Virus record (IMG/VR): IMGVR_UViG_2531839449_000046
DNA from: a virus
Taxonomy: Duplodnaviria > Heunggongvirae > Uroviricota > Caudoviricetes
Length of the DNA stretch: 41,869 nt
Reading direction: 5' to 3' (one strand)
This document shows positions 3,001 through 6,000 of this stretch, one piece after another (positions within the stretch are counted from its first letter, which is position 1; each line of letters begins with the position of its first letter). Position numbers: made by a program.

Positions 3001-6000
3001 GTAGCTGTTGCGGTATCGCAGTAATGACGAGTGTCAACCAACGTATCCATACCATCGATATCAAGTACGCAAAACCATGTGTGATTCGGCATTTCAACAG
3101 ATGGTATTTGTTGCCCACGTCGACGTTTATCAATAAGACATACACTCACTGCTTGCCTCCTTTACGCAACATCGCATTCAGATATTTGTTTTGATTTACT
3201 GACGGAAAAGAATTTCTCTTAAGTAATTCCTCTCTCGATGGCATTGGCTTTACGCGCTGGCGAATAATCATTTCTGCCGGAAGAATGCTGGGATTGTATG
3301 CAAGTCATCTCATGGTAAATTCCTCAGTTATTACTGATAGCGCCATAGCGTGAGCGGTAATTACGCAGGCGCGGGTCAATTTCAGGGAAGTGGGTATATG
3401 TGGCTTTGCGGAATGGTCGGATTGATGTCTGGTAAATTCGCTCGCGTTCTTCTTTCTCTGCAAGCCATACGCAGTGGCGAAATTCCTTTTCCTCTTTTGT
3501 TTCCTGCGGTAGCGACATTATCCGGTCGTAATTTTTCCTGAATTTATCCAGCACCTCCGATACGGAATTGCCGGAACAGCGGCGCGGGTCATCCGCACCA
3601 TACAGAGGCGCTGGCATAATTAAATCCTTATTTTTCTAAATCAGAATGGGATGGAATCGTCGTATACAGGGGTGTTCTGCTGGTTACTACTTTGCTGCTG
3701 CGGGCCATTTCCTGAAGCTGCAAATCCAATCTTTGCATTCAGTAATTCAAGAGTGATTGATTGACCATTTTGCCCCTGATAAACATCAACCCTGATGTTT
3801 TCTCCGGTAATTTCTACAATGCCACCTTCAACAAGAACACTACGGTAGTAATCCGCTTGCGCTCCCGGCTTGGCAAATACAACGGCGTTGTAGTTTGTCC
3901 ATTCTTTCTTTTTGTCTGGCGATCGTAATACTGAACGCCAGCACGGATGTTGAATCCGATATTTTCCCCGGCCTGAAACTCTCTTGCGGGCTTGTTTAGT
4001 CTTACAGTAATCGAATGTGCCATTAAGCAGCCGCTCCTTCTAATTCGTCTCGTCTGATGTTGTAAACGTCCTGCGCTTTGTGCTGCTCCGGTGTGCCTTC
4101 GAGCATCTTCCACGCTTTGGCGAACGCCTGTTTAAGCTCTTCTACGGTGTTTTTCTGCAATGCTGCGTCAGTGAATGCTTTTAGAACCTGTTCAGGTGTA
4201 GGTGATGGTTTTGATTGCTTTGCTGCTGCGTTCTGCTGATGTTTATGCTCGTCTGTATCTGCATCTTTCGCATCATCAATGCCGAACAAACCATTGAGGC
4301 AATACTTGCGTGCATAAGAGCTTGTAGCTCCCGTAACTTGTGCAGAATCCATTCCTTTCTTGCTTTCTTCCTCTCGTGCAAGAGCGGTTGCCGTATGACT
4401 GTTTTCGCCATCGGTAATAGTTGCCGTGGCTTTCACGTAATACCGATTACCAATCAACACAACTTCATCGCTGATTGATAAAAACAGACCATTCAGTAAC
4501 GGCTTAACGCCTTCAAGAATGTCTTCGCAGCTTCTGTATTTATATTTACCGAATGAGTTGTACTGATTCTTGGGCGCGTTCAGATTTTCCTGAATAGCTG
4601 CCAGTCTTGCGTAAAATTCTTTGCTCATATGATTGTTCTCAGAATGGACATGGCCCAAGGAAATAACGCTGATTTAATACTTCAGTCTTTGCCGCATTTA
4701 AAAATACGCGAACACCTTCACGATCTCCCTTCTGGCGATACATTAACGCCTGCTGCGTGTACATGCGTCTCTGTAACTTGCTCTCCTTCACGGTGGTTGC
4801 AAGTGACATGAATATCTCCTTCGTTACCGATTAATTCTTTCATCTGACGAATGAATTCTTCGTCTGACCAGTTATCTGTAAAACTCATGGGCGGCCTTGT
4901 TGTTTCAAAATATCCCAAAGCTTTTCGAGCAAGCTTTTCATTCTTGGTTGTTTAAAGTCTGCTCCGGTTAAAATATTTTTTCGTGAATGCTGTACCGATA
5001 AAATCGGGTTGAAAGGGCGAACCGATGCCGCCCCTGCAATAGCGAACTGTTGCATAGGATGCTCCTTCTGTTTGATTGCATAACGAAAACGCCTCGAGTG
5101 AAGCGTTATTGGTATGCATATAAAAAGGCCCTCACACTGGAGGGCAAAGAAGATTTCCAATAATCAGAACAAGTCGGCTCCTGTTTAGTTACGAGCGACA
5201 TTGCTCCGTGTATTCACTCGTTGGAATGAATACACAGTGCTTATTCGTACTAATAAAACACCCAATTTTCTGTTTCTTGGTTGTGTCCAAAGTTATATTC
5301 AATATCTGGTATTGATGTATCAATATTCTTCATCCCATCAACAAGAGTTGATACAACAGCCAAATCTTGTTTGATTCTCATTAAATGGTACTTCTTCCGG
5401 CGCAATAAACTTTCAATGGCAAGTTTCTTCGTCGGGAATGCAAAAGATCTTTCGGCATTTTTTGCTACTTTCTTAATTGCATATCTATTTCTCCTTTGTT
5501 TCCATTCCTGTAACCACTGATTTGGTGCTGGTTTAAAATTAACAATCCAATGCGCAGGAACCAACCATGCATAATGATCTGTCTGATGAAAAGCTATATA
5601 TTGAAGTGCGAATATTTTGATTCCATCTTCTTCAACTGTCGCTTGGAATCTCCAGAAAACAGGCATTCCATCATGTTCAGTTTCTGATTCAGGAAAAGGT
5701 ACGCTCCATGATTTTGTCATATCTCACCTCAAATAATTCAGTGCTGTGTTTATTCTGTTGTTTATGCCAAAAATAAAGGCCGCCATCAGGCAGCCTTGTT
5801 GTTCAGTTTACCAAGTTCTCTGGCAATCATTGCCGTCGTTCGTATTGCCCATTTATCGACATATTTCCCATCTTCCATTACAGGAAACATTTCTTCAGGC
5901 TTAACCATGCATTCCGATTGCAGCTTGCATCCATTGCATCGCTTGAATTGTCCACACCATTGATTTTTATCAGTAGTCGTAGTCATACGGATAGTCCTGG

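What the first reader, a model, noticed from the sequence alone, without database searches (positions are those of the whole stretch)
3641..4020. ssb gene downstream of erf is frameshifted in a short homopolymer region
An ATG with an OB-fold-like N-terminus stops at 3814, while an ORF with no ATG carries the rest of an SSB, including the DDSIPF acidic tail, to 3641. The two frames are joined by a one-base change around the T5 run at 3909-3913 (plus strand). This ORF is invisible to ATG-initiated ORF finding. Either the prophage has lost its SSB partner for Erf or the read has a homopolymer error.
Basis: seen in the sequence. Interest (0 to 1): 0.5.

Follow-up and report, generated by a model that had tools for sequence, protein, structure and literature searches.

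The report
Frameshifted phage SSB pseudogene beside erf
A small phage gene for a single-stranded-DNA-binding protein, lying between the erf and abc2 recombination genes of a P22-like E. coli prophage, is broken by loss of one A from a run of six; this is an ordinary, recurrent kind of prophage gene decay, not a new mechanism.

Summary
On the minus strand an ATG at 4023 (overlapping the erf stop as TAATG) opens a frame that stops at 3816-3814 after 69 aa. The -1 frame is open from 4039 to the stop at 3643-3641, has no ATG/GTG/TTG, and ends ...VYDDSIPF. The two frames meet at an A5 run (3913-3909; T5 on the plus strand). Relatives have A6 there and one 127-aa ORF. These include HK97 gp40, HK106 gp36 and the same prophage in E. 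coli O111 strains (99.9% identical over about 39 kb). The repaired protein matches PHROG 44 (SSB) and is predicted to fold like bacterial SSB, with a disordered linker and a DDSIPF tip. It is the untested "SSB-1b" of the literature. A5 is rare: 2 of 579 complete E. coli records, 0 against at least 120 in IMG/VR, and 0 against 54 in metagenome contigs. It arose at least four times on different allele backgrounds, and PGAP already calls it "frameshifted" elsewhere. Intact alleles have pN/pS of about 0.15. Only 1 of the window's 163 homopolymers of 5 nt or more differs from the reference, and the same allele occurs in independent sequencing runs. A real slippage deletion is therefore more likely than a read error, though only the reads can settle it. 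There is no evidence for programmed frameshifting. Interest is low.

The parts
4023..4628 (-). erf (single-strand annealing protein), 201 aa; its TAA stop (4025-4023) overlaps the ssb ATG as TAATG
   Evidence: PF04404 ERF E=1.5e-44; identical to WP_000031374.1 'ERF family protein' of O111 11128
3641..4023 (-). whole ssb-like (HK97 gp40 / SSB-1b type) pseudogene, 383 nt where intact alleles have 384
   Evidence: Alignment with intact homologues; with one A restored, 0 differences from the intact O111 allele; PHROG 44 SSB E=1.6e-27 for the repaired protein
3814..4023 (-). 5' reading frame as sequenced: ATG 4023 to TAG 3816-3814, 69 aa. The first 38 residues are authentic (beta1-beta3 of the OB fold); the last 31 are out of frame
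   Evidence: secondary structure of the intact homologue
3909..3913 (-). frameshift site: A5 run on the coding strand (T5 on plus). Ancestral state is A6 (codons ACA AAA AAG AAA = T K K K); the window reads ACA AAA AGA AAG
   Evidence: A6 in about 577 of 579 E. coli records, at least 120 IMG/VR contigs and 54 metagenome contigs
3641..3908 (-). 3' part of the gene in the -1 frame (this frame is open from 4039). It encodes the rest of the OB domain, the Q/N/G-rich linker and the DDSIPF tip, and has no ATG/GTG/TTG
3324..3617 (-). abc2 (anti-RecBCD), the next gene downstream, with its own AAGGA Shine-Dalgarno sequence
   Evidence: PF11043 E=4.3e-64; sequence

Best explanation
The gene between erf and abc2 is a phage SSB-like gene of the HK97 gp40 ('SSB-1b') type. 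It has an OB-fold domain of about 105 residues, a short disordered Q/N/G-rich linker and a DDSIPF tip resembling the host SSB tail. In this prophage it has lost one A from its only A6 run, most likely by replication slippage. Translation from ATG 4023 now leaves the true frame after Lys38 and ends at TAG 3814, giving a 69-aa product that lacks most of the OB fold and the tail. The 3' part has no canonical start codon of its own, so the allele is in effect null. The change is best read as a real, neutral or nearly neutral decay event in a prophage that also carries two IS1203 insertions. Erf would then rely on host SSB, as P22 Erf does. Shown: the deletion, its position, the ancestral state, its rarity and recurrence, and the SSB-like fold. 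Inferred: that the deletion is biological rather than an assembly error, that the product is non-functional, and that Erf copes without it.
For: A5 against A6 is the only indel in the gene. It is the only window-specific indel in about 39 kb compared with two copies of the same prophage, in O111:H- 11128 and O111:H8 08-4347. Of 163 homopolymers of 5 nt or more in the window (35 of 6 nt, 8 of 7 nt), only this one differs from the reference. The exact 69-aa product is called in Logan assemblies of separate runs (SRR30690018, seen in 3 samples; SRR35513971). Their DNA is 99.8% identical to the window with no gaps and 3-5 SNPs. The 90%-identity cluster of truncated products has 44 distinct sequences, some on 17-116 contigs, and all those inspected switch frame at QTK|RKNGQTT. 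With the A restored, each A5 allele is 0-1 nt from an existing A6 allele, while A5 alleles differ from each other by up to 22 nt, so there were at least 4 independent events. PGAP flags the same allele as 'frameshifted' in strains 81 and ET151, and the HF4s deposit splits the gene. Intact alleles have pN/pS=0.145, so the intact gene is functional. SSB identity: PHROG 44 E=1.6e-27; AlphaFold pLDDT 81.7 with an OB barrel and disordered tail; the Foldseek top hits are bacterial SSBs at E about 5e-5; linker and DDxIPF tip conserved. The literature names HK97 gp40 SSB-1b (PMC12315714). There is no start codon in the 3' frame.
Against: The change lies in a homopolymer, the typical place for base-calling errors, and the reads behind the window are not available. 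No complete genome shares the window's IS junctions, so no sister assembly of the same strain could be checked. One assembly carrying the same peptide (L007) is rich in gaps and may itself be erroneous. Loss of function of the 69-aa product and Erf's independence from this SSB are inferred, not tested. SSB-1b has never been assayed.
Confidence: 0.72

Rival explanations
1. Sequencing or assembly error: the source strain really has A6 and an intact gene, and one A was dropped during base-calling or consensus building.
For: The indel is in a homopolymer. All closest relatives of this prophage have A6. A5 is very rare overall. At least one other A5-bearing assembly is gap-rich (L007: 11 gaps in 1.6 kb).
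Against: 162 of 163 homopolymers of 5 nt or more agree with the reference, including all eight 7-mers and the other 6-mers. An error-prone technology should hit longer runs first. The other indel relative to 11128 (window 18872) is a defect of the reference, not of the window. The same gene allele with A5 occurs in gap-free Logan assemblies from separate runs and in two finished chromosomes.
Confidence: 0.2
2. Tolerated recoding: after decoding AAA (Lys38), tRNA-Lys slips -1 on A-AAA-A while the rare AGA codon waits in the A site. The ribosome then reads AAG AAA GAA TGG and makes exactly the wild-type QTKKKEW protein at a low but useful level.
For: The sequence geometry allows it: a -1 P-site slip on ACA AAA AGA restores the wild-type amino-acid sequence (inference). 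AGA is a rare E. coli codon and tRNA-Lys is known to be slippery (general knowledge). Phage HF4s is viable with the A5 allele.
Against: A AAA AGA is not an X XXY YYZ tandem-slippage heptamer. The downstream RNA has no significant structure (z=-0.57). The two-frame layout is present in under 1% of copies and arose repeatedly from A6, so it is not a conserved design. HF4s viability is equally explained by the gene being dispensable: 177 of 246 lambdoid Rec modules lack an SSB.
Confidence: 0.03
3. Selected loss or on/off switching: the A-run acts as a mutational switch, and A5 alleles are favoured in some hosts, for example to avoid defence systems triggered by phage SSBs such as Retron-Eco8, or to avoid toxicity in the lysogen.
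For: At least 4 independent A6-to-A5 events at the same site. Phage SSBs are documented triggers of Retron-Eco8 (bioRxiv 10.1101/2025.11.11.687766). A viable phage carries the allele.
Against: A tract of 5-6 nt is short for a contingency locus. A5 frequency is about 0.4% or less and no A7 allele was seen. Other inactivating lesions occur at a comparable rate: 2 other frameshifts plus the HK97 tail frameshift among 122 A6 copies. A mutational hot spot in a dispensable gene is therefore enough to explain the pattern. No link between SSB-1b and any defence system has been shown.
Confidence: 0.05

Closest known systems
HK97 gp40 / HK106 gp36 / E. coli WP_000951320.1 ('SSB-1b' of Rec modules in lambdoid phages, PMC12315714)
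   Same: Same gene: 97-99.8% nucleotide identity, the same position between erf and abc2, and the same TAATG overlap with erf. Restoring one A gives a protein identical to WP_000951320.1.
   Different: The window copy has A5 instead of A6 and is split into two frames. HK97's own copy has a different lesion, an extra A near the 3' end that replaces DDSIPF with DDSNPILI.
The same A5 allele annotated elsewhere: E. coli strain 81 (LRM32_RS07290), ET151 (NMD29_RS07250) and phage HF4s (HF4s_0032/0031)
   Same: The same one-base deletion in the same run. PGAP marks it 'frameshifted' and the HF4s deposit splits it into 'ssb protein' plus 'putative phage protein'.
   Different: Different allele backgrounds, 3-22 nt from the window's allele, so these are independent events. 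In HF4s and ET151 the out-of-frame peptide runs to 94 aa because the TAG at 3814 is a GTG/TGG variant there.
Bacterial SSB (E. coli SSB; PDB 1QVC, 1EQQ, 1EYG)
   Same: Predicted OB fold of SSB type, a disordered linker, and a C-terminal tip DDSIPF against DDDIPF in E. coli SSB.
   Different: Under 20% identity. No Pfam SSB hit, and TIGR00621 scores 13.9 bits against a cut-off of 53.95. The linker is much shorter (127 aa in total). ssDNA binding has not been tested.
HK620 SSB (HkaK, 'SSB-2') partnered with Sak4 (PMC5928155)
   Same: A phage SSB encoded directly downstream of the phage annealase. Its last six residues (NDYPPF) are needed to stimulate the annealase, which is the functional model for what the DDSIPF tail would do for Erf.
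   Different: An unrelated protein family (DUF669) with a different partner (a RecA-like Sak4, not Erf). No experiment exists for the Erf/SSB-1b pair.
dnaX-type programmed -1 frameshifting (A AAA AAG)
   Same: The intact A6 allele contains A_AAA_AAG in phase. In the A5 allele a -1 slip on the A run would restore the correct frame.
   Different: The A5 allele lacks the heptamer, no stimulatory structure is present, and the arrangement is not conserved.

Membership tests
HK97 gp40-like phage SSB ('SSB-1b', PHROG 44) | Sequence similarity to family members | tested here: met
   PHROG 44 E=1.6e-27; 97% nucleotide identity to HK97 gp40; repaired allele identical to intact O111 alleles
HK97 gp40-like phage SSB ('SSB-1b', PHROG 44) | Position in the Rec module between erf and abc2 | tested here: met
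   Erf PF04404 upstream and Abc2 PF11043 downstream; the same order in HK97, HK106 and O111
HK97 gp40-like phage SSB ('SSB-1b', PHROG 44) | Single uninterrupted reading frame of about 125-127 codons | tested here: not met
   The frame is broken at the A5 run: 69-aa product, and the 3' part has no start codon. The window copy is therefore a pseudogene member.
Bacterial-type SSB (Pfam PF00436 / TIGR00621) | Score above the curated threshold of the sequence models | tested here: not met
   No Pfam hit at E<=1; TIGR00621 13.9 bits against a cut-off of 53.95; the PDB sequence and profile searches find no SSB
Bacterial-type SSB (Pfam PF00436 / TIGR00621) | SSB-type OB fold (five-stranded barrel with a helix between beta3 and beta4) | tested here: met
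   AF2 model of the intact homologue, pLDDT 81.7, with strands and helix 55-63; the Foldseek PDB top hits are bacterial SSBs, then PriB and mtSSB, at E 5e-5 to 1e-3 and probability 1.00
Bacterial-type SSB (Pfam PF00436 / TIGR00621) | Disordered linker plus acidic C-terminal tip ending in (D)DxIPF | tested here: met
   Residues 107-127 have pLDDT below 50; linker of variable length and a conserved D-D-x-I-P-F end across 25 homologues; DDSIPF is encoded at 3661-3644 of the window
Bacterial-type SSB (Pfam PF00436 / TIGR00621) | Cooperative ssDNA binding as an oligomer | not testable with these tools
   No experiment is reported for SSB-1b (PMC12315714)
Programmed -1 ribosomal frameshift site | Slippery heptamer X XXY YYZ in the 0 frame | tested here: not met
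   The window reads A AAA AGA. The canonical A AAA AAG exists only in intact A6 alleles.
Programmed -1 ribosomal frameshift site | Stimulatory RNA structure downstream | tested here: not met
   MFE -19.5 kcal/mol against a shuffle mean of -17.8, z=-0.57
Programmed -1 ribosomal frameshift site | Two-frame arrangement conserved among homologues | tested here: not met
   A6 single ORF in about 577 of 579 E. coli records, at least 120 IMG/VR contigs and 54 metagenome contigs. A5 counts are 2, 0 and 0. More distant homologues have KQKEW with no A run.
Phase-variable contingency locus (homopolymer switch) | Long tract and both states common in populations | tested here: not met
   The tract is only 5-6 nt; A5 is about 0.4% or less of copies; no A7 was seen among 130 copies

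The most novel reading that the evidence does not exclude
The A6 run in this phage SSB gene is more than a passive hot spot. Either recurrent A6-to-A5 loss is selected, for example as escape from host defences that sense phage SSBs such as Retron-Eco8, or the A5 allele still yields some wild-type protein through a -1 P-site slip of tRNA-Lys on A-AAA-A before the rare AGA codon. In the second case the lesion would tune SSB dosage rather than abolish it.
Probability: 0.06. Interest if true: 0.5.

Novelty: already known. Interest (0 to 1): 0.12.

Why it matters
It matters little beyond annotation. The stretch 3641-4023 should be annotated as one frameshifted pseudogene of an SSB-1b (HK97 gp40-like) gene, not as a 69-aa hypothetical protein followed by unannotated sequence. 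Two minor points of wider use follow. First, the single A6 run is the dominant inactivation site of this gene family, with at least 4 independent events, so A5 calls here should not be dismissed automatically as sequencing noise. Second, natural A5 and A6 pairs, including the viable phage HF4s, are ready-made isogenic material for testing whether SSB-1b helps Erf-mediated recombination. That has never been tested.

Tried and rejected
1. Pfam, NCBIfam and PDB sequence or profile searches with the repaired protein and its alignment gave no significant SSB hit. Identity had to come from PHROGs, the predicted fold and the literature.
2. I first compared the window with the O111 11128 prophage near wrbA (L005). 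Only window 1284-5736 matched, so the two are mosaic relatives. I replaced it with the true counterpart near dacD/sbmC (L006) and with 08-4347 (L132).
3. I looked for the source strain through its IS1203 junctions and found no complete genome sharing them. A sister assembly could therefore not be used to decide between mutation and error.
4. Independent translation of the 3' part is rejected, because the 132 open codons contain no ATG/GTG/TTG.
5. The idea that the two parts are separate genes is rejected, because 118 of 122 A6 copies are single ORFs of 126-127 aa with the IPF tail.
6. A downstream frameshift stimulator is rejected (z=-0.57).
7. Exact A5 scans of IMG/VR, metagenome contigs and GTDB representatives all returned nothing. 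This is useful as a frequency estimate but added no further A5 examples.

Full report
**Observation**

On the minus strand, erf (4628-4023) ends in TAA, which overlaps an ATG at 4023 as TAATG. From that ATG, frame 0 encodes 69 aa and stops at TAG 3816-3814. The sequence is MAHSITVRLNKPAREFQAGENIGFNIRAGVQYYDRQTKRKNGQTTTPLYLPSRERKRITTVVFLLKVAL.

The -1 frame is open for 132 codons, from 4039 to the TGA at 3643-3641. It contains no ATG, GTG or TTG, and it encodes ...KKKEWTNYNAVVFAKPGAQADYYRSVLVEGGIVEITGENIRVDVYQGQNGQSITLELLNAKIGFAASGNGPQQQSSNQQNTPVYDDSIPF. This is why the mechanical ORF list does not show it.

The plus strand has T5 at 3909-3913. The only correction is that the start codon is 4023-4021, not 4020.

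**Where the lesion is**

Megablast found 51 phage records and 582 E. coli records with this segment, nearly all spanning one base more than the query. Alignment with HK97 (gp40), HK106 (gp36) and Stx1a_10051 shows a single indel inside the gene. These relatives have A6 where the window has A5, and the codons ACA AAA AAG AAA GAA TGG (T K K K E W) become ACA AAA AGA AAG AAT GG.

Those relatives annotate one ORF of 384-390 nt between erf and abc2.

**What the window is**

The window is a P22-like prophage integrated next to dacD/sbmC. The same prophage is present in E. coli O111:H- 11128 (L006) and O111:H8 08-4347 (L132), where the gene is intact as WP_000951320.1, 127 aa.

- **Against 11128:** about 39 kb of shared unique sequence shows about 20 SNPs and two indels. 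One is the A-run. The other is at window 18872, where the reference rather than the window is the frameshifted copy (Rha-family regulator).
- **Against 08-4347:** 25 SNPs and only the A-run indel.

The window has its own IS1203 insertions, at 10846-12155 and 35201-36510. No complete genome shares the junction at 10845.

**Real mutation or error?**

The window contains 163 homopolymers of 5 nt or more: 120 of 5 nt, 35 of 6 nt and 8 of 7 nt. Only 3909-3913 differs in length from the reference. That argues against an assembly with systematic homopolymer errors.

The exact 69-aa product is also called in other assemblies. L007 (an NCBI assembly) is gap-rich and was discounted. L008 and L009 are Logan assemblies of separate sequencing runs. 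They match the window at 99.8% with no gaps and differ by 3-5 SNPs.

The 90%-identity cluster of the truncated product has 44 distinct sequences of 69 or 94 aa. Some are seen on 17, 32 or 116 contigs. All those inspected change frame at QTK|RKNGQTT.

In finished chromosomes, strains 81 and ET151 carry A5, and PGAP labels the gene 'frameshifted'. The deposited genome of phage HF4s has A5 and splits the gene in two.

I therefore rate a real deletion at about 0.7 and an assembly error at about 0.2. Only the reads can decide for this particular window.

**Frequency and recurrence**

Counts of the exact motif, A5 against A6:

| Collection | A5 | A6 |
|---|---|---|
| Complete E. coli genomes (records) | 2 | about 577 |
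| IMG/VR viral contigs | 0 | at least 120 (capped) |
| Metagenome contigs | 0 | 54 |
| GTDB species representatives | 0 | 1 |

I extracted 130 full gene copies from the loci fetched. With the missing A restored, each A5 allele is 0-1 nt from an existing A6 allele. The A5 alleles differ from one another by up to 22 nt. The groups are window/L008/L009, strain 81, ET151 and HF4s, which gives at least four independent origins.

Among 122 A6 copies, 118 are intact with a DDSIPF or EDSIPF end. Two carry other frameshifts, and two are HK97 itself, which has an extra A that destroys the IPF tip. The 77 distinct intact alleles give pN/pS = 0.145.

The intact gene is therefore maintained by selection. 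The A6 run is its main mutational weak point, and A5 alleles are sporadic decay products.

**What the gene encodes**

The repaired protein has no Pfam hit and only sub-threshold NCBIfam SSB hits (TIGR00621, 13.9 bits against a cut-off of 53.95). It matches PHROG 44, 'single strand DNA binding protein', at E = 1.6e-27.

The homologue search returned 305 relatives in Enterobacterales phages and prophages. They share a conserved N-terminal domain of about 100 aa, a Q/P/G-rich linker of very variable length, and a D-D-x-I-P-F end.

An AlphaFold2 model of a 98%-identical intact homologue has mean pLDDT 81.7. It is a β-barrel with one helix (residues 55-63) and a disordered tail (residues 107-127). 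Foldseek against the PDB returns bacterial SSBs as essentially all top hits (Coxiella, Klebsiella, E. coli 1QVC/1EQQ/1EYG), followed by PriB and mitochondrial SSB. E-values are 5e-5 to 1e-3 and probability is 1.00.

This agrees with PMC12315714, which names HK97 gp40 'SSB-1b': SSB-like by predicted structure, at most 15% identical to known SSBs, and untested.

**Likely role and consequence of the lesion**

By analogy with HK620, an SSB encoded next to the annealase stimulates annealing through its last six residues (PMC5928155). The DDSIPF tail of SSB-1b would then recruit Erf, or host partners, to SSB-coated ssDNA. This is inference.

The A5 allele keeps only β1-β3 (38 residues) and loses the rest of the barrel and the tail, so it should be null.

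The cost is probably small:
- The P22 and λ Rec modules encode no SSB, and 177 of 246 lambdoid Rec modules lack one.
- HF4s, which has the same allele, grows to about 10^11 PFU/ml and lysogenises.
- abc2 downstream has its own Shine-Dalgarno sequence.

**Recoding considered**

A -1 P-site slip of tRNA-Lys on A-AAA-A, with the rare AGA codon in the A site, would regenerate the exact wild-type sequence. Three things argue against it as a design:
- A AAA AGA is not a tandem-slippage heptamer.
- The downstream RNA is no more structured than shuffled sequence (z = -0.57).
- The two-frame layout is rare and repeatedly derived from A6.

Programmed frameshifting is therefore rejected as a design (about 0.03).

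A selected loss remains an untested speculation (about 0.05). One possible driver is escape from SSB-sensing defences such as Retron-Eco8. The low frequency of A5 and the comparable rate of other lesions are explained by neutral hot-spot decay.

**Verdict**

This is an ordinary frameshifted pseudogene of a known, though experimentally uncharacterised, phage SSB-like gene. The same allele is already flagged as frameshifted in public annotations. Interest is low.

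Noticed in passing
window 10846-12155 and 35201-36510: Two IS1203 (IS3-family) copies at sites not shared with the same prophage in O111:H- 11128 or O111:H8 08-4347, which have their own different IS1203 sites. They interrupt homologues of the hypothetical proteins WP_001036037.1 and WP_001334102.1. No complete E. coli genome shares the 10845 junction.
   Followed up: partly
window 18872 (L006 about 31156): The window has AAA where O111:H- 11128 has AA. The Rha-family regulator is intact in the window and in 08-4347 but annotated 'frameshifted' in 11128. This is a second short-homopolymer indel in this prophage lineage, this time in the reference.
   Followed up: partly
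L001 (HK97) 1578-1967, near 1950: HK97 gp40 has an extra A (GATTCCAATCCC against GATTCCATCCC), so its C-terminus reads DDSNPILI instead of DDSIPF. The reference phage's copy lacks the SSB-like tip, through either mutation or an old sequencing error.
   Followed up: partly
window 8463-9340: 14-15 SNPs are packed into about 900 bp compared with both O111 references, while the rest of the prophage differs by roughly 1 SNP per 4 kb. This looks like a recombination patch in the replication-gene region.
   Followed up: no
intact A6 alleles, e.g. L006 44691-45074 (site equivalent to window 3906-3915): Intact alleles carry ACA AAA AAG, which is the dnaX-type slippery heptamer A_AAA_AAG in phase. A -1 shift there would give a product of about 60 aa. 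The run is absent from more distant homologues, which have KQKEW, so it is probably incidental.
   Followed up: no
window about 6365-6587 (minus strand): PGAP marks a 'hypothetical protein, frameshifted' at the corresponding place in both O111 references, just upstream of the N-like gene. The window sequence is identical there, so it shares this second pseudogene.
   Followed up: no
L187 (Shimwellia pseudoproteus DSM 3038, NZ_WBXP01000038.1) 294-322: The only GTDB species-representative genome with the exact A6 29-mer is a Shimwellia genome. This shows the gene allele outside Escherichia and Salmonella.
   Followed up: no
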